NCBI GenBank assembly: GCA_023267435.1
Contig: JAHFNH010000002.1
Coordinates: forward strand, 4,219 to 68,218
Length of the DNA stretch: 64,000 nt
Source: Candidatus Nomurabacteria bacterium
GTDB taxonomy: Bacteria > Patescibacteriota > Minisyncoccia > Phycocordibacterales > UBA9973
Direction: 5' to 3'
Numbering within the stretch: the stretch's first letter is position 1; the number at the start of each line of letters is the position of its first letter. A program made the translations under genes and the position numbers. The notes under the pieces are model-generated. The model was given only the letters and a program-made list of their open reading frames with translations. It searched no databases and was not told the origin of the DNA. Shown here piece after piece: positions 25,188 through 48,245 of the stretch.

Positions 25188-25202
25188 AAATTTTTCACTT
25201 AA

Positions 25203-25733: not shown

Positions 25734-25743
25734 ATTTTTTTAT

Positions 25744-26607: not shown

Positions 26608-27789
26608 TTACCTTACAATCACATTAGTAACAGGGATGCTTGGTGCAATTTCCTTATTCATTCCCCCTATCAAGCTATAAATAGGCATTATTATGGATAA
26701 TGCCACAGCCATGACTCCAAACCATACGAAAATCAGAAGAATCGGTTCGAGTGCCACAGTTAAGTTTTTGATAGTATTATCTGATTTATTTTCAAAAGCT
26801 TCACCAATATTTTTTAAAACACCTGACAAATTTCCAGATTGTTCTCCGACGACGATCATTTGCACTATTGTGCTTGGAATCATTTTGTTTGTATTATGGA
26901 AAAGCAAAAAAGATTTTTGTAAAGAATTACCTTCTTCTACATGTTTTCTTATGCTTCCATATAATTTTTTATAATTTTCAAGATTAGTCGAATCATAAAG
27001 TACAGAAAGTGAATCATTCAAAGATACGCCAGCGCTTAGTAGATTGCCTAAGATATATCCGAATCTGGATATTTCTATTTCTCTCATTAATTTTTTAATT
27101 CCTGGAATAGAAAATAAAAAGGCTTGGCCTATGAATTTTGTCTGTTGGTTATAAAAAATAAAATAACTTACTAGGATTATAAAAAATAATAAAGCTGGAA
27201 TAAAAATCAATCCATAATTTACCAAGAATGAACTGAAAGCAATAAATATTTTTGTTATAAGAGGAAGCTGAACATTCAATTCTGTGAATACTGGAATTAG
27301 TTTCGGCAAGATAAACCAAAAAATTCCAATCGCGACAATCAGTGTGACTGACAAAACTAAAATCGGATATGCCATAGCGCTCTGTATTCGCGATAATGCA
27401 ACTCTATCTTTTTGCTGTTGCACAGCTATAGCGTTTAAGTTGGCGCCGAGTTGTCCTGATTTCTCCCCTATTTTTATAAGCGTTATAGTAGACGCGCTGA
27501 AAATTCCAGCTTCTTTAAGAGCCTGCCAAAGCGGTGCACCTTGTTCTACTTCGTTCTTTACGTCTAAAATTATTCTTCTGATTTTTTTAGAACGTATTCC
27601 ACTGGTGATTATTCCTAAAGATTCTGTTATACCTACACCTGCATTTACAAGCATGGCTAAGTTTTCAATAAAATAATTTCTCTCTTCTCCGAGATTAATT
27701 TTTGAAAAAATATTTAATTTCTTCTTTTTATTTTTTTTCATAAATATTTTGAGCATGAATTGGAGAAGCGACTCGGAGCAATTCTTCAA
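26608..27789 (-). CDS. pilC: Type IV pilus / T2SS platform protein (GspF/PilC family)
   Basis: Two GspF repeats and 3 TM helices. It overlaps pilB, so the true start is likely the internal Met 'MKKNKKKK'. Confidence 0.75.
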   Translation of the reverse strand: MKNCSESLLQFMLKIFMKKNKKKKLNIFSKINLGEERNYFIENLAMLVNAGVGITESLGIITSGIRSKKIRRIILDVKNEVEQGAPLWQALKEAGIFSASTITLIKIGEKSGQLGANLNAIAVQQQKDRVALSRIQSAMAYPILVLSVTLIVAIGIFWFILPKLIPVFTELNVQLPLITKIFIAFSSFLVNYGLIFIPALLFFIILVSYFIFYNQQTKFIGQAFLFSIPGIKKLMREIEISRFGYILGNLLSAGVSLNDSLSVLYDSTNLENYKKLYGSIRKHVEEGNSLQKSFLLFHNTNKMIPSTIVQMIVVGEQSGNLSGVLKNIGEAFENKSDNTIKNLTVALEPILLIFVWFGVMAVALSIIMPIYSLIGGMNKEIAPSIPVTNVIVR

Positions 27790-29443
27790 GTGTTGTGATT
27801 CCAGCTTTTACTTTTTCTAATCCATCTTGAAATAAAGATTTTGAACCTTGGCTTTTTGCTAAATCCCAAATTTGTTTAGCAGAAGGATTTTTTAGAACTA
27901 AATCATGAATTTCGGGCGTAATGTGAATAATTTCAAAAAGAGCAGTTCTTCCATGATAGCCTGTATTGTCACAAGATTTGCAACCTGCGCCTTTATAAAG
28001 AATCATTCCTTTATCCATATATTCTCCTGTAAAGAATTTTTTTATATCATTTTCCTTAGACTCATCGACTACGCGACATTTGTCGCAAATTTTTTGTACT
28101 AGGCGTTGAGCAACGATTAATTCTAATGTTGAAGCTAAAAGAAACGGACTGATGCCAAGGTCGATAAATCTAGGTATCGCAGTGGCTGCATCATTTGAGT
28201 GAAAAGTTGATAATAAAAGATGGCCTGTCAAAGCTGCTCCGATGGCTATTTGAGCTGTTTCTTCATCGCGAACTTCTCCGACTAAAATAATATTTGGATC
28301 TTGTCTGACAATAGATTGCAGTCCTTTTGCAAAAGTAAGATTGGTTAGTGGATTTACTTGGACTTGGTTTATGCCTGGAATTTTATATTCTACCGGATCT
28401 TCTATTGTTGTTATGTTAACCTCAGAATTATTCAACACTTTTAATATTGAATAAACTGTAGTGGTTTTTCCAGATCCAGTCGGACCAGTGACTACGATCA
28501 TCCCAAATGGTTTTTTTGAGGCTTCCATTATCATAGCTTGATGATCTGAAGAAAGTCCTATGTCGCTGAGTGAGAAGCTTCGAATATTTTCTGAAAGTAT
28601 GCGAATAGCTATTTTTTCTCCATCGAGTGTTGGCAATATCGAAACTCTCATATTGATTGTTTCGCCATTTTTAACATAACGGATAGCGCCGTCTTGCGCT
28701 GAAAAATGTTCGTCTGTTCGCAAATATGCTTGAACTTTAATTCTGTTTAATATGTTTTCATAATATTTTTTAGAAAAACGTCCCACTTCGCGCAATATTC
28801 CATCAATACGAAAACGCACAACAACTTCATTTTCCTGAGGTTCGAAATGTATGTCTGAACTCGAATATTGGAGAGCATCATTAAATATTTCTTCTATGAT
28901 CTCCGGAGCGATACCCCGACCGGAATTTATTATTTCGATAAAGCGAGCTTTGAGTGATCGTTTGTATTGCTTTAGAGCTGTATCGATATCTTCGGGCAAG
29001 GAATAATTTAATTCAATTATTTTTTTAGTAAAAAACTGTTTTAATACTGAGGCATTTTTTTTCAATTCTTTTGGATTGTCTGTAGTAATTATTACAGTTT
29101 TATCATTTCCTTTAATAAAAATAACCCTATGTTTTTTTGCTATTTCTTCTGGAATTTCTAACACTTGTTCTGAAGTTACCGGTTTGGAACCTAGGTTAAA
29201 ATAAGGGACATCAAACCATAAAGCTATAGATTCACCTAAAGTATTATTATTAATAATTCCCTTCATTAATAAATATTCAATAACAGATATATTGTTTTTA
29301 TTGGAAAATTCCTTAGCTTTTTTAAGTTCGATAGGCGTGATATGTTTATCGCGCAATAAAACATCTTCAATAAATAACTCTCCCTCTGAATTATCATTAT
29401 TAGTTTTCATATTATTATTAAGGATATCACAGAACTTTCCCAT
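27728..29443 (-). CDS. pilB: Type IV pilus assembly ATPase (GspE/PilB family)
   Basis: Walker A 'GPTGSGKTTT', Asp box, Walker B, a His box, and the tetracysteine 'CDKC...CKSC'. Confidence 0.85.
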   Translation of the reverse strand: MGKFCDILNNNMKTNNDNSEGELFIEDVLLRDKHITPIELKKAKEFSNKNNISVIEYLLMKGIINNNTLGESIALWFDVPYFNLGSKPVTSEQVLEIPEEIAKKHRVIFIKGNDKTVIITTDNPKELKKNASVLKQFFTKKIIELNYSLPEDIDTALKQYKRSLKARFIEIINSGRGIAPEIIEEIFNDALQYSSSDIHFEPQENEVVVRFRIDGILREVGRFSKKYYENILNRIKVQAYLRTDEHFSAQDGAIRYVKNGETINMRVSILPTLDGEKIAIRILSENIRSFSLSDIGLSSDHQAMIMEASKKPFGMIVVTGPTGSGKTTTVYSILKVLNNSEVNITTIEDPVEYKIPGINQVQVNPLTNLTFAKGLQSIVRQDPNIILVGEVRDEETAQIAIGAALTGHLLLSTFHSNDAATAIPRFIDLGISPFLLASTLELIVAQRLVQKICDKCRVVDESKENDIKKFFTGEYMDKGMILYKGAGCKSCDNTGYHGRTALFEIIHITPEIHDLVLKNPSAKQIWDLAKSQGSKSLFQDGLEKVKAGITTLEELLRVASPIHAQNIYEKK

Positions 29444-32789: not shown

Positions 32790-33224
32790 TTAATCTTTAA
32801 TTAATATATTAAGTATTTTAGTAAATTGTTTTCTTTCAGCATCATTTAATTTTGAAAGCATTTTTGTAAATACAGTGAATTTCTTTTCGTGAATCGATTT
32901 AAAGAATTTCCAGGCTGTTGGAGTCAACGCTACTCGTATACTTCTTCTGTCTTTATCATTTGAAACACGAGTGATGAGTTTCTTTTTTTGCATTATCTCC
33001 ACAATAGCTGTGGCAGAAGGCGGGGTTATTTTTAAATGATTTGCGATATCTTTCATCGAAGGTTCACCTTTTTCAGCGATATATGTCAGGGTATCGATAT
33101 GCGATATGGGACACTTTAGGTCTTCAGCCTCTTTTCGCAACATATCCGAAAACTTACGGCGGAAGGCGAAAAGTGTTTTTTCTAAAGAAAGCTCATCCCC
33201 TCTTAATGTAGGTTGTTTTTTCAT
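32790..33224 (-). CDS. MarR-family transcriptional regulator
   Basis: A winged HTH of the MarR type. It is the first gene of the marR-MFP-MFP-MFS operon. Confidence 0.8.
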   Translation of the reverse strand: MKKQPTLRGDELSLEKTLFAFRRKFSDMLRKEAEDLKCPISHIDTLTYIAEKGEPSMKDIANHLKITPPSATAIVEIMQKKKLITRVSNDKDRRSIRVALTPTAWKFFKSIHEKKFTVFTKMLSKLNDAERKQFTKILNILIKD

Positions 33225-33344
33225 ATTTTATATTTAATTAACTAATAGTTAGTTAGGCTAACAATCTAACATAATATATTTAAAAAGGCAAATAAAAAAG
33301 CACTGAACATCGTAATGAGAGGTGTGCTTTAATACTATTAAATA

Positions 33345-33800
33345 TTACTTACTTTCTAATACTTTAAGTACCCTAAGTTTGTCTTCTTCCGTCATTCTTT
33401 CCAAAAGAAGATTGTTTTTATCTTTAGTATATTTGTTTAATACCCAAAAAATAAAATTAGGGTCATCAGATAAGCAATTATTACTTTCTATAAAATTAAT
33501 ATCTTCCATTAAGGCATTAATTAATTTTGTAATAAATTCGTCCGATCTTAATACTTCTTCTTTTACAAATTCAGGTGAAATTACACCGACACTCAACTGT
33601 AAGGATTTAACATTAAGAATTACAAGAGTTTTTGTTTTAAGGTCAGACCAATCTGGGCTTTCGGTTTGATTCAAAATATCCTCTAACTTTTTATACATAT
33701 TGCTTATCCAATAATTAAAATTTTGTTCATGTTCTTTGGAAAGAGAACTAAAGACTTCTCTTGTTTTCCATACATGTGGTGTTTCATTTTTTTCTTCCAT
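33345..33800 (-). CDS. Hypothetical protein (island cassette 1, minus-strand arm)
   Basis: 151 aa, no recognisable motif. Driven by the palindromic promoter at 33865 and carries the conserved leader. Confidence 0.4.
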   Translation of the reverse strand: MEEKNETPHVWKTREVFSSLSKEHEQNFNYWISNMYKKLEDILNQTESPDWSDLKTKTLVILNVKSLQLSVGVISPEFVKEEVLRSDEFITKLINALMEDINFIESNNCLSDDPNFIFWVLNKYTKDKNNLLLERMTEEDKLRVLKVLESK

Positions 33801-33864
33801 AATATTAGATTTTTATATTGATTAAGAACTTTTGTTTATTTTTCCTTATACTACAAACAAATCA

Positions 33865-33876
33865 TTGACTTGTCAA
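33865..33876. promoter_or_regulatory. Palindromic shared -35 element TTGACTTGTCAA (bidirectional promoter 1)
   Basis: Plus strand: TTGACT-17-TATTGT. Minus strand: TTGACA-17-TAGTAT. Confidence 0.55.
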
Positions 33877-33950
33877 TGGGTTCGTGATATTGTTTGGTTA
33901 AATAGATTTCAGAAAACTAACCGAGCCTAGCTCATTAAAAAACAAAAAAT

Positions 33951-34274
33951 ATGAAAAATCTGTTACAGGAACTTTTATTAACTCATCAAAGTGTGAGAGG
34001 AGTTCAATTAAAAATTGTAAAACTTGCCGTTAATCGCTTAAACAGGTTATGTAAAAGAAAAATAGAATTTTCTGTACATGAAGATATAGAAGATAATTAT
34101 TATTGGATTTTTATTCCCAATAAAGTAGCTTTTGTTAAAAAAGTTAAACAACTTAATGAACAAATAAGAAAAGAATTAAAAGATGCGGATGCTAAATTTA
34201 ATCTCAGCTTTATGCCTCAAGCTACTAAAAGAAACATTCTCGATAGAAATGTAAACAAAGAAATTGTTTTTTAA
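33951..34274 (+). CDS. Hypothetical protein (cassette 1, plus-strand arm)
   Basis: 107 aa. Its conserved leader contains GAGCCTAGCTC. Confidence 0.4.
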   Translation: MKNLLQELLLTHQSVRGVQLKIVKLAVNRLNRLCKRKIEFSVHEDIEDNYYWIFIPNKVAFVKKVKQLNEQIRKELKDADAKFNLSFMPQATKRNILDRNVNKEIVF

Positions 34275-34293
34275 GAAAAATTATTTTTCAAAA

Positions 34294-34321
34294 AGCTCCA
34301 CAGAAATGTGGTGCTTTTTTA
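34294..34321 (+). terminator. Intrinsic terminator
   Basis: agctccaca-gaaa-tgtggtgct (one mismatch) followed by TTTTTT. Confidence 0.55.
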
Positions 34322-34395
34322 TTTATACTTACTCTAAACTTTAAAGATATTTCAGACAAATAAAAAAGCCTCCCCTTGCGGTTCGGCTTAATTGA

Positions 34396-34788
34396 CTAAA
34401 AAATATCTGTGTAATTATAAGAAGTGTTATTAGATGAATTTATTTCACCTGTACCTCCACATTTTCTACATTCAGAAATATAATATGGATCACCTCCACC
34501 TCCACCACACCTTTTGCATTTTTTCGCTTTCTTTTTATTGTCATAAAAACCATCTTCTATGTTCAATAATTTTTTTGTATTAAGAAGTTCGTGGTCATAA
34601 GGCAAAAAAGTACAAACTCTGTTATAGAATATCAAACTATTTTGCTGTTCTTTCCATGCATTAGTTAGAGCGTCAGAAGAACCAGCTATTACTATCCTTG
34701 GCATTAAAGGAGAATGGCTTGATTGTAACATTGCCATTACACCACCAGATTTATCGGATGTGATTAGAAGAATTGTGTATATTTCCAT
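34396..34788 (-). CDS. Hypothetical protein with two DnaJ-type CxxCxGxG zinc-finger repeats (cassette 2, minus-strand arm)
   Basis: 'CKRCGGGG...CRKCGGTG' at the C-terminus. The N-terminal 'ILLITSDKSGG...RIVIAGSSDALTNAW' looks like a small alpha/beta fold. Confidence 0.45.
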   Translation of the reverse strand: MEIYTILLITSDKSGGVMAMLQSSHSPLMPRIVIAGSSDALTNAWKEQQNSLIFYNRVCTFLPYDHELLNTKKLLNIEDGFYDNKKKAKKCKRCGGGGGDPYYISECRKCGGTGEINSSNNTSYNYTDIF

Positions 34789-34851
34789 TTGTATATAGTA
34801 TTTAATTGTTTAAGGACTCTGTTTATTTAACTTCACATTACCAAAAATTTG

Positions 34852-34863
34852 TTGACATGTCAA
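34852..34863. promoter_or_regulatory. Palindromic shared -35 element TTGACATGTCAA (bidirectional promoter 2)
   Basis: A perfect 12-bp palindrome. Plus strand: TTGACA-17-TAATGT. Minus strand: TTGACA-17-TAATGT through the 'cattaccaaa' block. Confidence 0.55.
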
Positions 34864-34906
34864 TTAGTCTATGTTAATGTTTAGTAAACCAAATAAAACT
34901 TGTACA

Positions 34907-35344
34907 ATGACAACAATAGAAAATTTAATCCTAGTCGGTGAAATTGAAAAACTCTTCAATGCTGACGCAAAAGCTAAAAAATATATTAAGGATGCAAAAT
35001 TCATATTAGTCTCTACAGATAATGTAAAGTACAAAATGATAATGCATTTAGCAAGCTATCCGTATGAATATCACTCCCAGGCGGTATTAAAATATATGGA
35101 AGACAACAATTTAAATGAAATCTATTCTTACGGTGGTGCTAAAATTGTATTAGGTACGATAGATGACGTATTGTGTCACGGAAAATCATACGCATTAAAA
35201 ACTGCCAATGATGAAAAGCTTACAGAAGTAGTAAAAAGTATTTGGCCAAATGCCGAATTAGAAATTATGACTTCTGGTGTAAAAGTTAAAGAGGCTATGC
35301 TTTTTCCAAAAGAACGAATTCAGTATTTTGCTGAACATCCTTAA
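34907..35344 (+). CDS. Hypothetical protein (cassette 2, plus-strand arm)
   Basis: Start moved to 34907 (MTTIENL) because the ORF-track start at 34871 lies inside the -10 element. Confidence 0.4.
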   Translation: MTTIENLILVGEIEKLFNADAKAKKYIKDAKFILVSTDNVKYKMIMHLASYPYEYHSQAVLKYMEDNNLNEIYSYGGAKIVLGTIDDVLCHGKSYALKTANDEKLTEVVKSIWPNAELEIMTSGVKVKEAMLFPKERIQYFAEHP

Positions 35345-35386
35345 GGTGATTTTAATTTATTAAATACGCTATTACAAAAACAAAAA

Positions 35387-35417
35387 ACTTGTCTGAATAT
35401 TCAGACAAGTTTTTTTA
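35387..35417. terminator. Bidirectional intrinsic terminator
   Basis: Perfect hairpin acttgtctga-atat-tcagacaagt flanked by an A-run and a T-run. Confidence 0.75.
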
Positions 35418-35422
35418 ATTTT

Positions 35423-35929
35423 TTAATTCAAAGGTTCTTTGTTTCTAATTAGTCTCAAGATCATTCTTATTGATTTAACTTGTTCATCAGAAAGAGAAAC
35501 CTGATATGATCCTACATTACATCTCTTTTGACCATTAAAATCTCGATATACATTCCCACATTTATCTTTAGACATCAAAGGCAGAATACCAAATCCAACA
35601 AGAGTTAGACTATGGCTATCAAGTAAAATCTTTTTACTTCCGTTATCATGAAGCATTTTATGTAAAAGAAATTTTACAATGTACTCAATATTACTACTGT
35701 GGTGCTCGATATTGTCATTGCAACCATAAAAAAATAATTGATTATTATTATCTCTCTTTATATGCAGAAGCGAACCCTGACTTTTGTAAAAAGTTAAGAT
35801 TTCATCAATTCCAAAAGTATTAATAAAATTATTAAATAATTTTACAATTTGATCATTTATTTCCTGAGGTCTTTTTTTATCGATTTTTGCAAAATCAATT
35901 GGCCTACTAAAATCTAGTTGTGATTCCAT
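35423..35929 (-). CDS. Hypothetical protein (cassette 3, minus-strand arm)
   Basis: 168 aa, no recognisable motif. Confidence 0.4.
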   Translation of the reverse strand: MESQLDFSRPIDFAKIDKKRPQEINDQIVKLFNNFINTFGIDEILTFYKSQGSLLHIKRDNNNQLFFYGCNDNIEHHSSNIEYIVKFLLHKMLHDNGSKKILLDSHSLTLVGFGILPLMSKDKCGNVYRDFNGQKRCNVGSYQVSLSDEQVKSIRMILRLIRNKEPLN

Positions 35930-35991
35930 TTTTATATATATTAAATTGTTTACGAACTCCGTTTATTTAACCTTAAACTACCAAAAAATTC

Positions 35992-36003
35992 TTGACCTGT
36001 CAA
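35992..36003. promoter_or_regulatory. Palindromic shared -35 element TTGACCTGTCAA (bidirectional promoter 3)
   Basis: Plus strand: TTGACC-17-TATTGT. The minus-strand -10 lies in the 'aaactaccaaaaa' block. Confidence 0.55.
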
Positions 36004-36107
36004 TGTTTTTGTGATATTGTTTGTTTAAATTTGTTGAGACAAAATCTCGTTAAACAAAACCTATATATCCCCCAACAATATTGTTTAATCCTTAAAAACT
36101 AAATATC

Positions 36108-36644
36108 ATGAAAAAACTATCAATGCTTTTATATCAAACTCAGGGCATTATCAAATTTTGTGAAGAAATAAATGCTGAATTAGTGAGATTGAAATTAACA
36201 AGAAAAACAACAGGTGGTTATCTGACCATCGTTGAACGCGATACAGGAGCTATTGTGTTAACAATCCTTATTGGAACACTCCAATTTGAAAGGACGGCAA
36301 AACATCGCAGATTATCCATTGAACAAGCAAAGAGGGTGTTTGATGAAAAACTTTCTTCCTCATTCCAAAACAGAAATATCGAACAAGGGAAATCGGCAGG
36401 AGCTGTTTCAGGAGAGAAATTTATCTATTCATTTTCCGGTCACTGTGAAGAAATAAATGAAGTTGTTTCCATACTTTCGTGTATTGAAAACGAACAATAT
36501 TTAAATCCTGAGTTTCAGGCAAATTTACGGCAAGGTGAAGATCCCAAGCCAATGGATGTAATCCTGAAAAAAATGGACCTTGAATCAAAATTTATGATGG
36601 TTTCTGGTATTCGCAGTTTTATCAGCAAAATATTTGTTTGGTAA
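36108..36644 (+). CDS. Hypothetical protein (cassette 3, plus-strand arm; GC noticeably higher than neighbours)
   Basis: 178 aa with a long 113-nt leader. Confidence 0.4.
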   Translation: MKKLSMLLYQTQGIIKFCEEINAELVRLKLTRKTTGGYLTIVERDTGAIVLTILIGTLQFERTAKHRRLSIEQAKRVFDEKLSSSFQNRNIEQGKSAGAVSGEKFIYSFSGHCEEINEVVSILSCIENEQYLNPEFQANLRQGEDPKPMDVILKKMDLESKFMMVSGIRSFISKIFVW

Positions 36645-36664
36645 GTTCTTTGGTAAAAATTAGA

Positions 36665-36696
36665 AAGCCACTGGTGAAAATCAGTGGCTTTTTTTA
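36665..36696. terminator. Bidirectional intrinsic terminator
   Basis: aagccactg-gtgaaaat-cagtggctt followed by TTTTTTT. Confidence 0.75.
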
Positions 36697-37959
36697 TTTA
36701 ATTACTGCATTCGTTCCTGCCACAAAACCCGTCGTCCAGCATATTTGCAGACTATATCCTCCAGATGGACGGTCTATGTTTAATAAATCTCCAATTATAT
36801 AAAGATTTGGATATAATCTGGAACGCATAGTTTTGAAATCAATTTCATTTAACGCTACACCTCCGCTAGAAACTATTGCTTTATCTAAACCCAAAAGTTT
36901 ATCGATATTTATTGGAATTCCTTTTAATAAAGAAATTAATTTTATGCGTTCTTCACGAGTCACACTATTGCATTGAATTTCTGGATCAATGCCGGATAAT
37001 TCCACTACAACTGGTACGACAGATGATAAAATCAAACCAGCTAAACAATTTTTAAATTTCTTTTTATCATTTTCTTTAAATATTTCTAAAAGCTTTAGAT
37101 TAAGTTTTTCTTGATCGAAATTTGGTAAAAGATCTAATTTTATTACCACATCGCCATAGCCTAACAATCCACCTATATCTTTGCTCATATTTAAAATAGT
37201 GGGTCCACTGACGCCGACATGGGTAAATAGAATTTTACCTGTTTTTGAAATAGGACGTTTTTTGATAAATTGTTTTACATCATCCAAGTAAACAGTGAGT
37301 TTTACATTATCAAGACTGACTCCAGCTAATTTTTTAATCCATTTATCTTTCGTAGCGAGTGGCACAAGCGAAGGTATCGGTTCGATGATTGTATGCCCGA
37401 TATTTTTTAGCCATTTGAATGCGTCCCCTGTCGAACCTGTTTCTGGATGAGATTTACCTCCAGTAGCGACGATAATAGAACGAGCATAAATTATTTTATC
37501 TACAATTTTTACACCAATGATATTTTTATTTTCTATAACAAAATCAACAACTGGAGAATTTGATAATATTGTTACTTTTTCTTTTTTAATATATTCCACC
37601 ATAACATTCCAAACGGATTGAGATTTATTACTAACAGGGAAAACTCTTTGTCCTGGTTCTATTTTTGTTTCCATATTTCTGTTATGGAAAAAATCCAATG
37701 TTTCCTTTACGCTATATTGTGAAAAAGCTGAAAATAAGAATTTTCCGTCGTCTTTGAATTTTTCCAGAAGTTTCCTGTTGTCGAATTCTGCATTGGTGAC
37801 ATTACATCTGCCTCCGCCTGTAATAAGGAGTTTCTTGCCTAGAGAGTCATTTTTCTCAATTAAAATAACTTTTGCGCCGAGTTCAGCTGCTCGTCCTGCC
37901 GCCATCATTCCAGACGGTCCGCCTCCTATTATAACCACATCCCAAACATTTTCTTTCAT
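36694..37959 (-). CDS. HI0933/YhiN-family FAD-dependent flavoprotein
   Basis: 'DVVIIGGGPSGMMAAGRAAELGAKVILIEKNDSLGKKLLITGGGRCNVTN' is the signature of this family. Confidence 0.7.
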   Translation of the reverse strand: MKENVWDVVIIGGGPSGMMAAGRAAELGAKVILIEKNDSLGKKLLITGGGRCNVTNAEFDNRKLLEKFKDDGKFLFSAFSQYSVKETLDFFHNRNMETKIEPGQRVFPVSNKSQSVWNVMVEYIKKEKVTILSNSPVVDFVIENKNIIGVKIVDKIIYARSIIVATGGKSHPETGSTGDAFKWLKNIGHTIIEPIPSLVPLATKDKWIKKLAGVSLDNVKLTVYLDDVKQFIKKRPISKTGKILFTHVGVSGPTILNMSKDIGGLLGYGDVVIKLDLLPNFDQEKLNLKLLEIFKENDKKKFKNCLAGLILSSVVPVVVELSGIDPEIQCNSVTREERIKLISLLKGIPINIDKLLGLDKAIVSSGGVALNEIDFKTMRSRLYPNLYIIGDLLNIDRPSGGYSLQICWTTGFVAGTNAVIK

Positions 37960-38078
37960 TTTTATATGTTAGCACAAAAAATTTAAAGAAAATAAATAGA
38001 TTGACATATCGTATGTTTTATGATATCATCTCTATCAGAAATAGAATTGTTGTTTAACATAATATAAAAACCAAAAAA

Positions 38079-38513
38079 ATGAAAACTTTAATTATTTTAG
38101 ATAATTTAATAGGATTACAAAATTCCTTAATTATCGCTTGTGTTTGTATTGCAGTTGGCTTCGTTGTCTTTATTTATTTATTTTTGCTTTTTAAAGCAGC
38201 GTCATCAGCTCCATTGAAACCACTTATAACCAAACCGCGCAAAACGGTTGGACTTCCGGAATTACCGGATGGAACAAATCTGATCATTTTAGACAATAAA
38301 GAAGATTTGCCGATCGCACAAGATATTAAAGATTACAATATTGGTTTGAAAAAAAATGTTCTTGAAAATACTTTCTATCTTGCTAATTTTGGCAAAGAGA
38401 AATTGGAAGTAAATCAGGTTTATATCGTCAAACTGATAGGTAGTGGCAAGATCCATACTTTATGCAAAGTTGAAATTATGTTCAGCCCGGAGTACAACAC
38501 ACATCTAAATTAA
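38079..38513 (+). CDS. Hypothetical membrane-anchored protein
   Basis: 144 aa with one TM. Confidence 0.35.
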   Translation: MKTLIILDNLIGLQNSLIIACVCIAVGFVVFIYLFLLFKAASSAPLKPLITKPRKTVGLPELPDGTNLIILDNKEDLPIAQDIKDYNIGLKKNVLENTFYLANFGKEKLEVNQVYIVKLIGSGKIHTLCKVEIMFSPEYNTHLN

Positions 38514-38581
38514 GTTTTAAAGAACCAATCGTTAATAATGATTGGTTCTTTTATTTTTATATATAATGCTATAATAAAAAA

Positions 38582-39142
38582 ATGAAAAAACTTGCCAGTA
38601 AAATGTCTTTTTTAAAAACAATGGTGTGTGATTTCAAAGTAGCTGCTGTCGCCAGCAGTTCGTCTTATGTTGTTAATCGCGTTATTAGTAAAATTGACGA
38701 TGGTTTGAATTTGATTATTGAACAAGGTTCTGGAGATGGAGTTATGACTAAAGCTTTGCTTACAAAGCTTTCCCCTGATGGAGCTTTAATCCTAATAGAA
38801 ACTAATCCAGAATTTGTAAAACAATTAAAAAAAATTGAAGACAAAAGAATCACAATATTTTTTGGTACTGTCCAAGATTTTTATAAAAAAATAGATGCAA
38901 ATCATTCTAAAGCAGATCTTGTCATATCCAGCATCCCCTTTTCTTTTCTAAAAACATCAGAAAGAGATGAAGTAATTAAAAAAAGTTTCGAAGTGCTTTC
39001 TGATTCTGGAAGTATGGTTATTTTTCATCAATACAGTCTCCTAATGCACAAATATGTTAAAAAATATTTCAAACATGTTTCAATCTTTTTTGAACCTAGA
39101 AATGTGATGCCGTGTTTTATAATTTTCGGTAAGAAAAAATAA
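38582..39142 (+). CDS. Class I SAM-dependent methyltransferase
   Basis: Motif I 'IIEQGSGDGVMT', an acidic residue after beta2 'LIETNPEF', and motif IV 'VISSIPF'. Confidence 0.55.
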   Translation: MKKLASKMSFLKTMVCDFKVAAVASSSSYVVNRVISKIDDGLNLIIEQGSGDGVMTKALLTKLSPDGALILIETNPEFVKQLKKIEDKRITIFFGTVQDFYKKIDANHSKADLVISSIPFSFLKTSERDEVIKKSFEVLSDSGSMVIFHQYSLLMHKYVKKYFKHVSIFFEPRNVMPCFIIFGKKK

Positions 39143-39146
39143 AAAA

Positions 39147-39176
39147 AGACTTATTTAAACAATAAGTCTTTTTTTA
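39147..39176. terminator. Bidirectional intrinsic terminator
   Basis: agacttatt-taaac-aataagtct followed by TTTTTTT. Confidence 0.7.
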
Positions 39177-39179
39177 TTT

Positions 39180-39743
39180 TTATATTTTTCCGATTAAATC
39201 AACACCTGGCGTTAAAACATCTTTGCCTGGCTCCCAGTTTGCTGGGCAGACATTTCCTTTATGTTCTCTTACGAATTTAGCCGCTTCTAATTTTCTAACC
39301 ATTTCCTTTGCACTTCGGCCAATGTTATTGTCATGAATTTCTATTGTCTTTAAAACTCCATCTGGATCAATAATAAAAGTCCCTCTTAAGGCCAATCCTT
39401 CAGTTTCAATATAAGTCCCAAATGCTCTAGAAATATTACCTGTCGGATCAGCCAGCATTGGATATTGTATTTTACCTATAGCAGGAGAAGTATCATGCCA
39501 AGCTTTATGCGCGAAAGCTGTATCAGTACTAATACTCATAATCTCTCCTCCTAATTTTTTTATTTCTTCGTAATGTACGGTTGCATCTTCTAATTCTGTC
39601 GGACAAACGAAAGTAAAATCTGCAGGATAAAAAATTAGTACTACCCATTTGCTTTTATAATCAGAAAGCTTGATTTTCTTTATCTCATTATTTTGATACG
39701 CATCCAGCTCAAAATCTGGAACAATTGAATTTATATTTATCAT
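39180..39743 (-). CDS. Peroxiredoxin (typical 2-Cys, AhpC/TSA family)
   Basis: 'FYPADFTFVCPTE' peroxidatic Cys motif and a resolving Cys near the C-terminus 'GNVCPANW'. Confidence 0.85.
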   Translation of the reverse strand: MININSIVPDFELDAYQNNEIKKIKLSDYKSKWVVLIFYPADFTFVCPTELEDATVHYEEIKKLGGEIMSISTDTAFAHKAWHDTSPAIGKIQYPMLADPTGNISRAFGTYIETEGLALRGTFIIDPDGVLKTIEIHDNNIGRSAKEMVRKLEAAKFVREHKGNVCPANWEPGKDVLTPGVDLIGKI

Positions 39744-39826
39744 AGTATTATTATACTCCCAATTTCTTAGATTGTAATCAATCTGTAGAAATTGCAGTCC
39801 TTTAGGGCTAATAAAAAGTATTAAAT

Positions 39827-41141: not shown

Positions 41142-43514
41142 TTAAATAACTTTTAAAGTTTGTAGTTTGTCGTTGGGGTTTAGTAATTTCATTTTGAAAA
41201 ACCAATGACTAATACTATATTGAGCAAGAGCGTAAAGAATAGTGAGCGGTATTATTTCTATAATATTATGTAATGATGCGCTTTCTAGATTGTAAAAATT
41301 AGCGATGAATGGGATTTTAAAGAAAAGAATAATAAATATAAATTCAACTACAATAAGCAGGAAAAATTGTTTTTTCTTGTTTTTTGTAGTTGGTCTACCA
41401 AATACGTTGGGTGTATACATAAAAAATATAACTCCTAGAATAATGAACGAGAGTACCACAAGACTTGTCGGACCATGGTTTTTCATATACTCAAAGCTTT
41501 CATAAAATGCAAAAATAGCGACCAGTGCCTGAGGAATAGCCGATATGAGTGTAAAAGGAATTACTTTTCGCAAAAAAGATTTATTATAATCCACGACACT
41601 ATTTTTAATAGGTCGAATAATCCAATAAAAAACAAGAAGTGATGGCAGGCCTACAGTAAAATAATTAATAAAAGTTATATTGAGTGGAGTAAATGGAAAT
41701 GAATGACTTGTTATCGCGACAATTATAAAAAAGAAAAAAGTTACGAATACTTGATTGAAAATAACACTAGCGCATATTTCAAGATTTTGAATTATACTAT
41801 CAGCAAGTTTTACGCCATTTGGCAGATCAGAGAAACTATTTTTTACCAATACCACTGAAGCAACTTGTCGAGTAGCTTGCGCACCGTCAAATAAGGCAAT
41901 ACCTAGATCGGCTTTTTTAATAGCTAGTGCGTCGTTTGCACCGTCACCTACCATTGCTGTAAAACCATCTTGTTTTAAGATTTCAATTATTTTTTCTTTT
42001 TGTTCAGGTTTTATTCTCGCAAATATAGTATATTTATGAATATTTTTTAAGAAATCAATATATGTCCAAGTTTCTAATTCAGCACCCGTTATAACATTTT
42101 GATAGTTATTTATACCAACTGCAGCAGCGACAGCTTGAACAGTTTTAGGATTATCACCGGAAATAATTCTGATTGTTACACCTCGTGCTTGAAAGAATTG
42201 TATGGCTTCTTTAACTCCTTCGCGAAGATTGTTGTTGAGTACAAATATAGATATGGCCTTCAATTTAATTCCGGAAAGATTTTTAGGTAAAACATTTAAA
42301 TCCGATCCGACAAAACAGATAAGTCGTTTACCGATTTTTGCTTCAGTTTCTATGAATTTTTGTACCCATGCTTTGTCTTCTTCTTTTGATAAATATGGCA
42401 AGAAAAGATCGGGTGCTCCAGCCAATACGACACGCTCGCCAAAATCATCCTTTATATGAACAGCTCCAAACTGGAGCGATGAAGAAAAAGTCAGATCATC
42501 TATCGTGGTGCCTAAATACTCGCTTGTAAACATTTTCTTTATAGCTCTAATAGTTTGAGATGAATCCCCTGTACTTTTAATGTATGCAGCGATAGATTCT
42601 TTGACAAATTTTTCACTTAGATCTGATATATTATGCATATGTTCAACGATCAAGTTATTATCGGTCAATGTTCCAGTCTTATCCATACAAAGATTTTTAA
42701 TTCTGCCAATTTTCTCAGTAGCGTTTATTTCTTGAAGCAATACATTTCTGCGATAAAGATGAGTTGCACCATATGAATAAACAAGTGTAACAATCACCAC
42801 CATACCTTGTGGTAAAAGAGCACTCGTTAACGCTCCTATATTTCGGATAATATCTACTGTAGATTCATGAATTAAAAAACCTCTACCGATAACAAAAAGA
42901 ATTATGAGCATAAGCACATAACCGGTGTATTTAATAACCATACTGATAGATTCCTGAATTGGACTTTGTATTAAAGAATATTTTTTTATATCCTTTGTCA
43001 TAAGAGAAATTCTACTTTCAGCAAATATTTTTTCAACTTCCAAAACGCCTAATCCTGATGTGATAATACTTCCAGCTAGTACATGATCATTAGGTTTCTT
43101 TAGAAATGTCGTAGGTTCACCTGTAATTAGTGCTTCATTTACTCCAAATCCATGCGAAGACGCCAAGATACCATCACAAGGTACTTGGTCTCCTGTTTTG
43201 AGTTTAATTTTATCTTTTTCTTTTATTTCTTCAATAAGAACAACTGATTCGGTACCGTTTTTGTTAATTCTGATTACTCTGGGAGCAGCCAGTAATTGCA
43301 ATTTTTCAAGAGTTAACCATGCATTAATTTCCTGAACACATCCAATGATGATATTTAATAAAGCAATTAATCCAAGAAACATTCCTTCTTGAGTGTCTCC
43401 AAATGTCGTAAGGAGAATTACAACAGAAAAAATAATTCCATTTACAAGAAGGAAGACATTACGATAAATAATATTTATAACAGTATTTAGTTTACTTAAA
43501 CGGATTTTGTCCAC
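41142..43514 (-). CDS. P-type cation-transporting ATPase (no N-terminal metal-binding domain; P2-like)
   Basis: 'DKTGTLT' phosphorylation site, 'GDGANDALAIKKADLGIA', and ten predicted TM helices. It starts at GTG. Confidence 0.8.
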   Translation of the reverse strand: MDKIRLSKLNTVINIIYRNVFLLVNGIIFSVVILLTTFGDTQEGMFLGLIALLNIIIGCVQEINAWLTLEKLQLLAAPRVIRINKNGTESVVLIEEIKEKDKIKLKTGDQVPCDGILASSHGFGVNEALITGEPTTFLKKPNDHVLAGSIITSGLGVLEVEKIFAESRISLMTKDIKKYSLIQSPIQESISMVIKYTGYVLMLIILFVIGRGFLIHESTVDIIRNIGALTSALLPQGMVVIVTLVYSYGATHLYRRNVLLQEINATEKIGRIKNLCMDKTGTLTDNNLIVEHMHNISDLSEKFVKESIAAYIKSTGDSSQTIRAIKKMFTSEYLGTTIDDLTFSSSLQFGAVHIKDDFGERVVLAGAPDLFLPYLSKEEDKAWVQKFIETEAKIGKRLICFVGSDLNVLPKNLSGIKLKAISIFVLNNNLREGVKEAIQFFQARGVTIRIISGDNPKTVQAVAAAVGINNYQNVITGAELETWTYIDFLKNIHKYTIFARIKPEQKEKIIEILKQDGFTAMVGDGANDALAIKKADLGIALFDGAQATRQVASVVLVKNSFSDLPNGVKLADSIIQNLEICASVIFNQVFVTFFFFIIVAITSHSFPFTPLNITFINYFTVGLPSLLVFYWIIRPIKNSVVDYNKSFLRKVIPFTLISAIPQALVAIFAFYESFEYMKNHGPTSLVVLSFIILGVIFFMYTPNVFGRPTTKNKKKQFFLLIVVEFIFIILFFKIPFIANFYNLESASLHNIIEIIPLTILYALAQYSISHWFFKMKLLNPNDKLQTLKVI

Positions 43515-43644
43515 GGATGATACGAATTAAGAATAGGATAACAGCTAAGACAAGAAGAATATGAATAAATCCACCTAAAACATGAAATCCAATAAAACCA
43601 ACAACCCATAAAACAAATAAGATAATTGCAATTAATGTAAGCAT
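43495..43644 (-). CDS. lmo0937-family small membrane protein
   Basis: 50 aa, 'MLTLIAIILFVLWVVGFIGFHVLGGFIHILLVLAVILFLIRIIRG', found by manual translation. Its 3' end overlaps the ATPase start by 20 nt in another frame. Confidence 0.4.
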
Positions 43645-43682
43645 ATAAATATAATATTAGATAATAAATTATTAATAAAAAA

Positions 43683-43868
43683 TTACTTTTTGGTTTTTTC
43701 CTTGATTACTTTGGTATTTTTAAAATACTCTACAACACCCCAAATTAGAGCTATAACACCTATAATTTTTAAAACAAAACCTATAACACCTATACTGACC
43801 AGAATATTTAGTCCTAGACAAATTCCGGCAGTTATTAATAAAACTTGATAAGAAGGCGATTTTTTCAT
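43683..43868 (-). CDS. Small two-TM membrane protein
   Basis: 61 aa, hydrophobic. Confidence 0.3.
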   Translation of the reverse strand: MKKSPSYQVLLITAGICLGLNILVSIGVIGFVLKIIGVIALIWGVVEYFKNTKVIKEKTKK

Positions 43869-43957
43869 ATTTTTAAATTAAAATTAACTAATAATAAATG
43901 TTGCATAAATTATAACATATTTGCGCAAACTGACATATTTTTTTAGGGATAATTTAT

Positions 43958-43993
43958 AAAAAACAAAAAGCCATATCTGTATAAGATATGGCT
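43958..43993 (-). terminator. Intrinsic terminator (minus strand)
   Basis: agccatatc/gatatggct 9-bp stem with a T-run on the minus strand. Confidence 0.65.
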
Positions 43994-44005
43994 TTAAAAC
44001 TAATT

Positions 44006-44497: not shown

Positions 44498-44575
44498 TTT
44501 ATGTAGGTTTTAAGTTGTTTAAGAACTAAATAGTTTATTTAATTTAAAAATAACAATAAAAAATATGTTTGTCAA

Positions 44576-44929: not shown

Positions 44930-44974
44930 ACAGAAAACTATTCTAACATTTTTAAATAAAAATTACCGCAATAA

Positions 44975-45008: not shown

Positions 45009-45021
45009 TTTTAATGCTTAC

Positions 45022-46630: not shown

Positions 46631-46701
46631 TTTTGCAGGTTTTTAGTGTTAGACATTTATTTCAAGTAACTAAATCTTTTTATCACATTACCAAATATCC
46701 G

Positions 46702-46713
46702 TTGACTCGTCAA
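46702..46713. promoter_or_regulatory. Palindromic -35 element TTGACTCGTCAA (promoter 4, minus strand only)
   Basis: Minus strand: TTGACG-17-TAATGT. There is no -10 on the plus side. Confidence 0.5.
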
Positions 46714-48092: not shown

Positions 48093-48159
48093 AATTATGT
48101 ATTATATCAAAAATTGTTTCTGGATGTTGAACATACGGAAACATATTACCAAAGATTCG

Positions 48160-48171
48160 TTGACTCGTCAA
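48160..48171. promoter_or_regulatory. Palindromic shared -35 element TTGACTCGTCAA (bidirectional promoter 5)
   Basis: Plus strand: TTGACT-17-TATTGT, with a leader containing GAGCAATTGCTC (48217-48228). Minus strand -10 lies in 'cattaccaaag'. Confidence 0.55.
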
Positions 48172-48245
48172 TGTTTTTGTGATATTGTTCAGGTAAATAA
48201 TTTCTGAGTATAAACCGAGCAATTGCTCATTAAAAATATAATATT

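What the first reader, a model, noticed from the sequence alone, without database searches (positions are those of the whole stretch)
33345..36700. Tandem array of three divergent two-gene ORFan cassettes with conserved leaders and bidirectional terminators
Three cassettes lie in tandem at 33.3-36.7 kb. The gene pairs are 33345-33800(-)/33951-34274(+), 34396-34788(-)/34907-35344(+) and 35423-35929(-)/36108-36644(+). The last two cassettes end in perfect bidirectional terminators (35387-35417 and 36665-36696); the first is followed by a plus-strand terminator at 34294-34321 and a short GC stem before 34396. The three minus-strand genes share a conserved 5' leader, AAATAAACA(A/G)A(A/G)GT(T/C)C(T/G)TAA(T/A)CAAT, between the -10 and the ATG. 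A ~70-bp block at 34801-34870 is roughly 80% identical to 35941-36010. The six encoded proteins have no recognisable family. The one exception is a pair of DnaJ-type CxxCxGxG zinc-finger repeats, CKRCGGGG and CRKCGGTG, at the C-terminus of 34396-34788. The gene at 36108 has visibly higher GC than its neighbours. The modular arrangement suggests recurrent insertion of, or recombination between, cassettes at a shared promoter unit. It may be a variable or defence-type locus of unknown function.
Basis: partly seen in the sequence, partly recalled or inferred. Interest (0 to 1): 0.7.

Follow-up and report, generated by a model that had tools for sequence, protein, structure and literature searches.

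The report
Reused two-way promoter driving unrelated genes
Six small, unrelated genes in an ultra-small (CPR) bacterium sit in alternating orientation and share a reusable two-way promoter-plus-leader module and two-way terminators; the module is used genome-wide and in related genomes, so this is a compact run of independent accessory genes, not a dedicated defence locus.

Summary
The described anatomy is real. Three head-to-head gene pairs (33345-36644) each share a quasi-palindromic promoter core. The core is TTGACnnGTCAA with TGnTAWTGT at 17-bp spacing on both strands. The pairs are separated by strong terminators.

It is not a self-contained locus. The same promoter plus a leader without a Shine-Dalgarno (SD) sequence drives about 18 genes in this 64-kb window (12 strict matches against 0.18 expected). 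It also occurs in related Paceibacteria-type CPR genomes, where a few leader families recur upstream of unrelated genes. Housekeeping genes instead carry leaderless-type TGnTATAAT promoters.

The six proteins are unrelated to each other. Homologs of P1, P3 and P5 are scattered, unlinked and lack the partner gene elsewhere. P6 is not an ORFan: it has 191 relatives and a GlcG/HbpS-like fold. I found no defence, phage or integron signal.

Best reading: six autonomous, insulated single-gene units built from a lineage-wide reusable promoter-leader module ("promoter propagation"). Alternating orientation lets neighbours share promoters and terminators. The functions of five proteins and of the leaders remain unknown.

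Novelty: new variant of a known kind. Interest: about 0.4.

The parts
33290..33331 (-). Intrinsic terminator of P1 (stem AAAGCAC...GTGCTTT followed by a T-run on the minus strand); the weakest of the set
   Evidence: Sequence; RNAfold dG -6.7
33345..33800 (-). P1, 151 aa, lineage-restricted protein of unknown function
   Evidence: ORF; homologs P0005 and P0006 at 52-54% identity; pN/pS 0.44; no family hit
33801..33950 (.). Module 1: two-way promoter (core 33848-33893, palindrome 33865-33876), type-A leader towards P1 and type-B hairpin leader towards P2
33951..34274 (+). P2, 107 aa, no homolog found
   Evidence: the homolog search had incomplete recall
34293..34324 (+). Intrinsic terminator of P2
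   Evidence: dG -14.6
34358..34389 (-). Intrinsic terminator of P3
   Evidence: I2; dG -10.1
34396..34788 (-). P3, 130 aa, unknown N-terminal domain plus two CxxCxGxG zinc-finger repeats
   Evidence: homolog P0003 at 67% identity with the motifs conserved; pN/pS 0.34
34789..34906 (.). Module 2: two-way promoter (core 34835-34880, palindrome 34852-34863 = TTGACATGTCAA), type-A leader towards P3 and a short ~20-nt leader towards P4
   Evidence: (D1, I1)
34907..35344 (+). P4, 145 aa (annotated publicly as 157 aa from 34871, which lies inside the -10 box), no homolog found
35382..35415 (.). Perfect two-way intrinsic terminator shared by P4 and P5
   Evidence: (I15); dG -18.0/-18.5; an independent assembly (L001) breaks here
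35423..35929 (-). P5, 168 aa, lineage-restricted protein of unknown function
   Evidence: homolog P0001 at 60% identity; pN/pS 0.32; AF2 model unusable
35930..36107 (.). Module 3: two-way promoter (core 35975-36020, palindrome 35992-36003), type-A leader towards P5 and a composite ~81-nt leader towards P6 (hairpin unit TTGAGAcaaaaTCTCG plus a second leader unit)
   Evidence: 74.5% identity over 137 nt to the L066 module; distal 47 nt 81% identical to the L033 leader
36108..36644 (+). P6, 178 aa, member of a broad uncharacterised family with a GlcG/HbpS-like (DUF336) fold
   Evidence: redox/haem gene context of a homolog
36662..36693 (.). Two-way intrinsic terminator shared by P6 and the flavoprotein gene 36694-37959(-)
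   Evidence: dG -20.2/-15.3
44498..44575 (-). Non-palindromic class-II promoter with a type-A leader, driving ORFan 44006-44497 outside the array
46685..46713 (-). One-sided copy of the module (palindrome 46702-46713 intact, no plus-side -10 box), driving the 101-aa gene 46325-46630
48143..48188 (.). Fourth two-way module (palindrome 48160-48171) between the SDR-like (short-chain dehydrogenase) gene 47430-48092(-) and ORFan 48246-48911(+), which has a type-B hairpin leader

Best explanation
The segment is a compact run of six autonomous single-gene transcription units in the chromosome of a Paceibacteria-type CPR bacterium. It is not a multi-gene system.

Promoters. Each head-to-head junction holds two overlapping, divergent sigma-70-type promoters arranged as a quasi-palindrome of about 46 bp: ACATTAcCA-N8-TTGACnnGTCAA-N8-TGnTAATGT. 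The two -35 hexamers abut and are crossed, so each lies in the first 6 bp of the partner's 17-bp spacer. The predicted start sites are about 60 bp apart.

Leaders. Each promoter is followed by an SD-less leader of 20-80 nt. The leaders come from a small set of families that recur across this lineage upstream of unrelated genes.

Terminators. Each tail-to-tail junction is a two-way intrinsic terminator, or two facing terminators, that insulates the units.

Why it looks this way. This promoter-leader design is the lineage's generic expression signal for leadered, mostly lineage-specific accessory genes. Housekeeping genes use leaderless-type extended -10 promoters instead. Alternating orientation is simply the most economical packing, because neighbours share one promoter region and one terminator.

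The module behaves as a reusable unit (promoter propagation): it stays put or is copied while the genes under it differ.

Shown: the sequence architecture, its statistics, its recurrence, and the lack of relatedness and linkage among the genes. Inferred: actual start sites, mutual exclusion of RNA polymerase at the crossed -35 boxes, a role of the leaders in SD-independent translation or mRNA stability, and recombination or gene replacement as the way the arrays arise.
For: Promoter geometry:
- On both strands of all three junctions, TTGACn and TGnTAnnnT sit at exactly 17-bp spacing.
- The strict pattern occurs 12 times in the window against 0.18 expected (0 of 100 shuffles reach 12).
- All four divergent class-II/class-II gene pairs in the window have the identical palindromic geometry. 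Class-II promoters without a divergent class-II partner lack the palindrome.

Two promoter classes:
- 13 of 76 genes, mostly housekeeping or operon-first, have TGnTAnnnT ending 5-9 nt before the start codon, against 1.14 expected (P about 1e-10).
- 18 mostly small ORFan genes have the -35 box 47-148 nt upstream of the start.

Recurrence:
- The degenerate pattern finds 34 loci in GTDB genomes, about 20 of them in CPR MAGs, with up to 7 per MAG.
- Leader families A, B, D, E and F recur there upstream of unrelated proteins.
- The whole cassette-3 module is 74.5% identical over 137 nt to a module in L066 that has different genes on both sides.
- The cassette 2 and 3 half-modules are 84% identical, which meets the published mobile-promoter criterion (PMC3488235).

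Genes are independent:
- No paralogy among them.
- Homologs are scattered and partner genes are not conserved.
- A P1 homolog sits in a ~10-kb run of about 17 small genes that mostly alternate in strand, next to an IS element.
- The genes are real: pN/pS is 0.32-0.44.

Insulation and setting:
- Terminators are strong and two-way.
- The setting is chromosomal, among dnaB, topA, relA, serS and dnaX.
Against: - No transcript data: start sites, terminator function and promoter strength are predictions from consensus.
- The palindrome is kept intact at 46702 even though only one promoter is used there. That could mean it has a function beyond two -35 boxes, although this copy looks like a recent duplicate of the 48160 module.
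- The leaders are conserved well beyond what a promoter needs, and their function is unexplained.
- Only 64 kb of the 312-kb source contig and 8-kb pieces of related genomes were available. 'Genome-wide' is therefore an extrapolation.
- No syntenic sister genome could be compared, so gain or loss of units at this site was not observed directly.
- Homolog searches for P2 and P4 had incomplete recall, so they may have relatives and a recognisable function.
Confidence: 0.65

Rival explanations
1. Operator or regulon. The TTGACnnGTCAA palindrome is mainly the binding site of a dimeric regulator. That regulator co-controls a dispersed regulon of accessory genes, and the conserved leaders add a shared post-transcriptional layer. 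One candidate is the small protein encoded at 46325-46630, which I judged helix-turn-helix-like by eye and which sits behind a module copy.
For: A perfect 12-bp palindrome sits at five sites in the window and in many CPR loci. It is retained at 46702, where only one promoter is used and the gene driven is the candidate regulator. Leader type follows lineage rather than gene: P3 and P5 have leader A here, and their homologs both have leader C elsewhere. That pattern suits co-evolution with a trans-acting factor.
Against: The palindrome occurs only where two class-II promoters diverge (4 of 4), plus one probable remnant. Non-divergent class-II promoters with the same leaders lack it. Both half-sites sit at exactly 17 bp from an extended -10 box, so two -35 hexamers explain them fully. 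No regulator was identified: 46325-46630 has no NCBIfam hit, and the adjacent MarR gene has a different candidate operator (sequence).
Confidence: 0.15
2. Actively mobile promoter-bearing repeat. The module is a non-autonomous, MITE-like transposable element that inserts between genes and brings outward-facing promoters.
For: It is quasi-palindromic (38-nt arms, 71% complementary, I1) and present in multiple copies per genome and across genomes. An IS (rve) transposase flanks the related array. It fits the broad mobile-promoter concept (PMC3488235).
Against: No terminal inverted repeats beyond the promoter elements themselves and no target-site duplications were seen. The two arms carry different leader families in varying combinations. 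Copies are only 53-84% identical, so they are old and not recently transposed. Leaders run right up to the start codons, as expected for functional 5' UTRs.
Confidence: 0.1
3. Tandem duplication and divergence. One ancestral divergent gene pair was triplicated, and the coding regions diverged beyond recognition while the regulatory DNA was preserved.
For: Three similar units lie in tandem. P1, P3 and P5 all start with Met-Glu and are 130-168 aa. The cassette 2 and 3 half-modules are 84% identical.
Against: There is no sequence or profile similarity among P1, P3 and P5 or among P2, P4 and P6. P6 belongs to a distinct, widespread family with its own fold. Homologs of the single genes occur alone elsewhere. 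Module copies in other genomes are as similar as local ones.
Confidence: 0.05
4. Dedicated functional island: a defence system, toxin-antitoxin-like gene pairs, or an integron-like cassette array.
For: Small ORFans, low GC content (0.26-0.32) and modular repeats; weak PHROG hits to the P3 zinc finger.
Against: No PADLOC hit at a meaningful E-value. No viral relatives. Partner genes are not conserved. Each gene has its own promoter and the genes alternate in orientation, unlike promoterless, co-oriented integron cassettes. The inter-cassette hairpins are plain terminators with flanking A and T runs. P6 has a ligand-binding fold and a redox gene context elsewhere.
Confidence: 0.05

Closest known systems
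Putative mobile promoters / promoter propagation (Matus-Garcia, Nijveen and van Passel 2012, PMC3488235; PMC3575422)
   Same: Highly similar 50-100-nt upstream regions sit in front of non-homologous genes, within one genome and across genera. The cassette 2 and 3 half-modules meet the published threshold (84% over ~77 nt).
   Different: Here the unit is two-way, with crossed -35 boxes, and it is coupled to a small set of interchangeable leader families. Most copies are older (53-78% identical), below the published cut-off. The lineage (CPR) was not in that survey.
Bidirectional promoters of E. coli type (bioRxiv 10.1101/2020.01.31.928960; PMC12825309)
   Same: A pseudo-symmetrical sequence drives divergent transcription. 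Competition between RNA polymerases is expected when both directions are strong.
   Different: Those promoters share the -10 element, with start sites 10-23 bp apart (most often 18). Here the symmetry centre is the pair of -35 hexamers, each promoter has its own extended -10 box, and start sites are about 60 bp apart.
Overlapping divergent promoters of classical operon pairs, such as tetA/tetR-type arrangements (from my own knowledge; not checked in a paper here)
   Same: Two sigma-70 promoters on opposite strands have overlapping recognition regions.
   Different: Classical cases pair a regulator with its target and contain operator sites. Here the pairs are unrelated genes, no regulator is evident, and the same module is reused many times.
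Bidirectional intrinsic terminators between convergent genes (known from term-seq-type studies; from my own knowledge, the papers found were not read)
   Same: A perfect GC-containing hairpin flanked by an A-run and a T-run can terminate transcripts from both strands.
   Different: Nothing unusual; the examples here are ordinary and strong.
Phage 'morons' (autonomous promoter-gene-terminator units; from my own knowledge)
   Same: Each gene is a self-contained unit with its own promoter and terminator, inserted among unrelated genes.
   Different: The context here is chromosomal, with no phage genes or viral relatives.
GlcG/HbpS-like (DUF336) proteins: HbpS, PduO C-terminal domain, EfgA, ORFY (applies to P6 only)
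   Different: Only 10-15% sequence identity and no Pfam match. P6 has an extra N-terminal helix and a C-terminal helical extension. The ligand is unknown.

Membership tests
Putative mobile promoter (PMP) family, as defined in PMC3488235 | Upstream regions align over at least 50 nt at 80% identity or more | tested here: met
   Cassette 2 against cassette 3 half-modules: 84% over ~77 nt, 79% over 84 nt ungapped. All other pairs are 53-78%, below the cut-off.
Putative mobile promoter (PMP) family, as defined in PMC3488235 | Downstream and upstream coding sequences are not homologous | tested here: met
   No BLASTP or hhalign similarity among the six proteins.
Bidirectional promoter of E. coli type (shared -10 element) | One -10 region serves both strands; divergent start sites are about 10-23 bp apart | tested here: not met
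   Each direction has its own -10 box (for example 34835-34840 and 34875-34880). Predicted start sites are ~60 bp apart (definition from PMC12825309).
Overlapping divergent sigma-70 promoters | Consensus-like -35 and -10 elements at 16-18-bp spacing on both strands, with overlapping recognition regions | tested here: met
   TTGACn-17-TGnTAnnnT on both strands at all three junctions.
Overlapping divergent sigma-70 promoters | Mapped transcription start sites in both directions | not testable with these tools
   No transcriptome data are available.
Integron gene-cassette array | Promoterless, co-oriented cassettes separated by attC sites, next to an integrase gene and attI | tested here: not met
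   The genes alternate in strand and each has its own promoter. The inter-unit hairpins are terminators with A/T runs. No integrase was looked for specifically beyond the family scans of selected ORFs.
Known anti-phage defence systems (PADLOC-DB v2) | A significant match of at least one protein to a defence-system model | tested here: not met
   The best E-values are 0.014-0.028 on short stretches.
Conserved two-gene module (toxin-antitoxin-like or effector-immunity-like) | The two genes stay adjacent in other genomes | tested here: not met
   Neighbours of the P1, P3 and P5 homologs are unrelated to P2, P4 and P6. The P6 homologs examined had no P5 relative among the fetched loci.
GlcG/HbpS-like (DUF336) superfamily (P6) | The characteristic fold | tested here: met
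GlcG/HbpS-like (DUF336) superfamily (P6) | Sequence-level match to the Pfam family | tested here: not met
   No Pfam hit for P6 or for 60 relatives, and no PDB sequence hit.
GlcG/HbpS-like (DUF336) superfamily (P6) | Ligand (haem, corrinoid or aldehyde) binding | not testable with these tools
   There is only a contextual hint: a homolog lies next to cytochrome b5, DoxX and VKOR genes.
DnaJ (Hsp40) chaperone (P3) | CxxCxGxG zinc-finger repeats | tested here: inconclusive
   Two repeats are visible and conserved in the homolog. PF00684 scores 13.4 bits against a cut-off of 32.7, and TIGR02349 gives E = 5.7e-4 on 38 residues.
DnaJ (Hsp40) chaperone (P3) | J domain and four zinc-finger repeats | tested here: not met
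   No J-domain match and only two repeats. P3 is not a DnaJ.
Rfam cis-regulatory RNA families (leaders) | A match at the gathering score | tested here: not met
   Only tRNAs pass at gathering. Permissive scans give only sub-threshold terminator-like hits.

The most novel reading that the evidence does not exclude
The crossed -35 palindrome and the handful of conserved leader families form a lineage-specific expression system for fast-evolving accessory genes in Paceibacteria. It would be separate from the leaderless housekeeping regime. A dedicated factor (a regulator, a sigma variant or an RNA-binding protein) would read the palindrome and/or the leaders. The crossed promoters would force mutually exclusive expression of the two genes of each pair. 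New genes would be plugged into this system by recombination at the modules.
Probability: 0.15. Interest if true: 0.7.

Novelty: new variant of a known kind. Interest (0 to 1): 0.4.

Why it matters
Almost nothing is known about how CPR/Patescibacteria express their genes, and the held literature had nothing on it.

If the two-regime picture holds, it gives a simple sequence rule for several tasks. The picture is leaderless extended -10 promoters for core genes, and a reusable -35-containing two-way promoter with stock leaders for lineage-specific genes. The rule could be used to:
- separate core from accessory transcription units in these genomes;
- correct start-codon calls (several were wrong here);
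- obtain ready-made strong promoters, leaders and terminators for the emerging genetics of these organisms.

It also offers a concrete example of how new or acquired genes get expressed in a streamlined genome. For the array itself the message is deflationary: it should not be carried forward as a candidate defence locus.

Tried and rejected
- Paralogy among the six proteins: none by BLASTP or hhalign. The only hhalign match was the translated leader in over-called N-termini.
- Pfam, PADLOC, PHROGs, NCBIfam and PDB sequence searches for P1-P5: nothing significant.
- AF2 of P5 with a 2-sequence alignment: pLDDT 42, unusable, so no fold search was done.
- Concatenating the two proteins of each pair to save capped searches worked only partly. 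Self-hits for P2, P3, P5 and P6 were missed (against 48). The search also missed the whole P6 family that exhaustive HMMER later found. 'No homolog' for P2 and P4 is therefore weak evidence.
- The afdb50 fold library was unavailable. The P6-family alignment was too diverse for the viral locus scan.
- Phage origin: no relatives of P1, P3 or P5 in IMG/VR and none of P2 or P4 in INPHARED. The module pattern gave 2 unrelated viral hits.
- The metagenome pattern scan returned mostly unrelated promoters. Only L052, L066 and L074 were true relatives.
- RNA structure in leader A: none. Leader B: a 4-bp hairpin without covariation. Rfam: no match.
- My early idea that an independent assembly broke at the repeated promoter module was wrong. 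It breaks in the palindromic terminator.
- The adjacent MarR gene as the palindrome-binding regulator: rejected, because its own upstream region carries a different palindrome (GTTAGGCTAAC).

Full report
**1. What is in the sequence**

The six ORFs exist as described: 33345-33800(-), 33951-34274(+), 34396-34788(-), 34907-35344(+), 35423-35929(-) and 36108-36644(+). I call them P1 to P6.

The three head-to-head intergenic regions share an 84-nt block (33812-33895, 34799-34882, 35939-36022). Copies 2 and 3 are 79% identical without gaps.

The tail-to-tail regions carry terminators:
- a perfect 17+17-nt palindrome at 35382-35415 (RNAfold dG about -18 on either strand);
- a 14-bp stem at 36662-36693 (dG -20/-15);
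- two facing one-way terminators at 34293-34324(+) and 34358-34389(-);
- a weaker terminator for P1 at about 33290-33331.

The array makes six consecutive strand switches. The window as a whole has 20 switches in 75 gene junctions.

**2. Anatomy of the shared block**

Its centre is the 12-bp palindrome TTGACnnGTCAA (33865, 34852, 35992). On both strands TTGACn is followed after exactly 17 bp by an extended -10 box, TGnTAWTGT or a close variant.

The two -35 hexamers abut and are crossed: each lies in the first six bases of the partner's spacer. The two promoters therefore overlap by 12 bp, and the predicted start sites are about 60 bp apart. For cassette 2 they fall near 34828 on the minus strand and 34887 on the plus strand.

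Predicted leaders are about 40 nt on the minus side. On the plus side they are about 50, 20 and 81 nt. None has a Shine-Dalgarno (SD) sequence.

**3. The module is not specific to the array**

The same palindrome and promoter occur in two more places:
- at 48160, between an SDR-like (short-chain dehydrogenase) gene and an ORFan;
- at 46702, where only the minus side is used.

The strict one-strand pattern TTGAC-N15-TGnTAnnnT occurs 12 times in the window against 0.18 expected. None of 100 shuffles reached 12.

A simple gene map shows two regimes.
- Class I: 13 of 76 genes have TGnTAnnnT ending 5-9 nt before the start codon and no -35 box. These include gltX, dnaX, the flavoprotein gene and several operon-first genes. 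This is the signature of leaderless mRNAs. The expected number is 1.14 (P about 1e-10).
- Class II: 18 genes, nearly all small and without family matches, have the -35 box 47-148 nt upstream of the start (mostly 73-87 nt). The six array genes are 6 of these 18.

All four divergent class-II/class-II pairs in the window have exactly the palindromic geometry. Class-II promoters without such a partner (1371, 12180, 15678, 38001, 44575) have no palindrome. Two -35 boxes therefore explain the palindrome.

**4. Organism and recurrence elsewhere**

The window is chromosomal, with dnaB, topA, relA/spoT, serS, gltX, dnaX, PBP2 and pilB. A syntenic dnaX-serS block is 66-81% identical at protein level to a 'Candidatus Paceibacterota' MAG (L009). 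The source is therefore a Paceibacteria-type CPR bacterium, and the source contig is 311,840 bp.

A degenerate promoter pattern found 34 loci among GTDB species genomes. About 20 were in CPR MAGs, with up to seven in one MAG. In those loci the similarity extends far beyond the search pattern.

A few leader families recur upstream of unrelated proteins:
- Family A, the finding's 'conserved leader' (...AGTTCTTAAACAATTTAAATA...): four window genes, including 44006(-) outside the array, plus L006, L020, L033 and L066.
- Family B (...TTCAGAgTATAAACC-GAGC-loop-GCTC-ATTTAAAAC...): window 33951(+) and 48246(+), plus L009, L012, L022 and L029.
- Further families D, E and F.

The entire cassette-3 module consists of leader A, the crossed core and the hairpin leader TTGAGAcaaaaTCTCG. 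It is 74.5% identical over 137 nt to a module in L066 whose two flanking genes are unrelated to P5 and P6.

Type-A half-modules are 53-78% identical both within and between genomes. Only cassettes 2 and 3 stand out, at 84%. So this is an old, conserved element family with one recent local copying or conversion event.

The last 47 nt of the cassette-3 plus leader is 81% identical to a different leader in L033. That leader is thus a composite of two units, which is a trace of recombination in the regulatory DNA.

Leader type follows lineage rather than gene. P3 and P5 both have leader A here, while their homologs in other metagenomes both have a third type, C.

**5. The genes**

The six proteins are not paralogs. 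All six are singleton clusters at 90% identity, seen only on the source contig.

| Protein | Homologs found | Context of the homologs |
|---|---|---|
| P1 | two, 52-54% identical | a ~10-kb run of about 17 small genes that mostly alternate in strand, next to an rve-type IS |
| P3 | one, 67% identical | alone between a metallo-beta-lactamase-fold gene and an S1-domain gene |
| P5 | one, 60% identical | between a holB-like gene and frr |
| P2, P4 | none | not applicable |

None of the homologs has a relative of the window partner gene beside it. pN/pS of 0.32-0.44 shows that P1, P3 and P5 are real, moderately constrained genes.

No Pfam, PADLOC, PHROG, NCBIfam or PDB sequence match is significant for P1-P5. 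The only signal is the sub-threshold DnaJ-type zinc-finger motif in P3. No relatives were found in viral collections.

P6 differs from the rest:
- An exhaustive phmmer search found 191 relatives at E <= 1e-3.
- A 60-sequence alignment gave a confident model (pLDDT 87).
- One homolog lies between VKOR and cytochrome b5 plus DoxX genes. That fits a haem or redox-linked ligand-binding role.

The word-index search had missed this whole family. The negative results for P2 and P4 should therefore be read with caution.

**6. Interpretation**

The array is best explained as six autonomous, insulated single-gene units that use the lineage's stock promoter-leader module. Alternating orientation is the most compact packing, because each promoter region and each terminator serves two genes. 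The mostly alternating run of small genes around the P1 homolog shows the same packing in another genome.

The module behaves as a reusable unit, which matches the published concept of promoter propagation. The cassette 2 and 3 pair meets that study's criterion of at least 80% identity over at least 50 nt before non-homologous genes (PMC3488235).

The geometry differs from the described E. coli-type bidirectional promoters. Those share the -10 element and have start sites 10-23 bp apart (PMC12825309).

Because the crossed -35 boxes lie inside each other's spacers, two polymerases probably cannot occupy a module at once. The paired genes may therefore compete for transcription. This is inference only.

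The leaders are unstructured and A/U-rich (family A) or carry a tiny hairpin without covariation (family B). They match no Rfam family. A role in SD-independent translation initiation, mRNA stability or binding of a lineage-specific factor is plausible but untested.

**7. Rivals**

- A regulator-operator reading of the palindrome is not excluded. The palindrome is intact at the one-sided copy at 46702. However, its strict association with divergent promoter pairs argues against this reading.
- A MITE-like transposon is unlikely. The arms differ, the copies are old, and no target duplications were seen.
- Tandem duplication with divergence is contradicted by the lack of any paralogy and by P6's separate family.
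- Defence, toxin-antitoxin and integron readings fail their defining tests.

**8. Verdict**

The locus, however, is an ordinary cluster of lineage-specific genes dressed in a generic expression module.

The more interesting result lies beyond the finding's borders. These CPR genomes show a two-regime promoter architecture and a family of reusable two-way promoter-leader modules, including one structured leader (see the side observations). I could not find this described in the held literature.

Noticed in passing
whole window; e.g. 8439(+), 12229(+), 18934-20142(-), 36694-37959(-), 38582(+), 49716-50471(-), 53616-54683(-), 62842-63834(-): Housekeeping and operon-first genes carry TGnTATAAT-like boxes ending 5-9 nt before the start codon and have no -35 box. 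This is the leaderless-mRNA signature: 13 of 76 genes against 1.14 expected. Shine-Dalgarno motifs are rare throughout the window.
   Followed up: partly
window 49520-49640(-); L020:2208, L029:1499 and 4895, L066:103, L074:4480: A ~125-nt 'family F' leader forms a 23-bp hairpin. Ten pairs show compensatory changes on both sides across 6 sequences. 92.8% of cells are paired, against 79% in shuffles and at most 54% with slid partners, and many G-U pairs are specific to the sense strand. It is a candidate structured 5'-UTR element with no Rfam match.
   Followed up: partly
window 49019-49585(-) and 34871-35344(+): Probable start-codon over-calls. The 49019 gene most likely starts at Met23 (MKAIKLFF..., which looks like a signal peptide), with the family-F leader upstream. 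The public 157-aa form of P4 starts inside the predicted -10 box. The database proteins P0001 and P0003 likewise have N-termini that are translated leader.
   Followed up: partly
window 43500-53300: A second low-GC (0.27-0.30) stretch of mostly single-gene, mostly minus-strand ORFans ends at tRNA-Gln (53208-53279) and a small GIY-YIG-like gene (53286-53522). It contains module copies at 46702 and 48160, a small protein that looks helix-turn-helix-like (46325-46630), and a protein with an apparent J-domain and Cys-rich region (51093-51707). It looks like an accessory island.
   Followed up: no
window 36108-36644(+); L078:10001-10528: P6 belongs to an uncharacterised family of ~150-195-aa proteins. 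Its consensus is GGYLTI..D..TG...IG..P.EK...S.EKA.RLF....H.SSWQSR.P....GGAI....I.SFSG..E..DEA, and it has a GlcG/HbpS-like fold. The family has no Pfam model. One homolog is flanked by VKOR, cytochrome b5 and DoxX genes.
   Followed up: yes
L028:~3930-4160 and L034:~7530-7760: Two MAGs deposited as different species (Paceibacterota JAVHNX01 and Minisyncoccia JBAQFC01) share an almost identical ~190-nt module, including the start of the downstream gene, with only 2 substitutions. This could be recent transfer or closely related genomes.
   Followed up: no
window 33252-33262: The palindrome GTTAGGCTAAC lies just upstream of the MarR-like gene (32790-33224), which heads an HlyD/efflux operon. It is a likely MarR operator and is unrelated to the TTGACnnGTCAA palindrome.
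   Followed up: no
window 24195-26596(-): A run of four or five small genes with weak N-terminal similarity to each other lies next to pilB (27728-29443). They are probably type IV pilin-like paralogs.
   Followed up: no
L038:~9990-10100 and L039:~2200-2300: A third leader type, 'C' (TTGATTGGTTTTCAGAG-hairpin-GATAACCAATTAAATA), is shared by the P3 and P5 homologs from two different metagenomes. The flanking ATTGGTT and AACCAAT could pair.
   Followed up: no
L001 (= window 35386-39779): An independent short-read assembly of the same strain is 100% identical and ends inside the perfect palindromic terminator at 35382-35415. This is probably an assembly break caused by the hairpin.
   Followed up: yes
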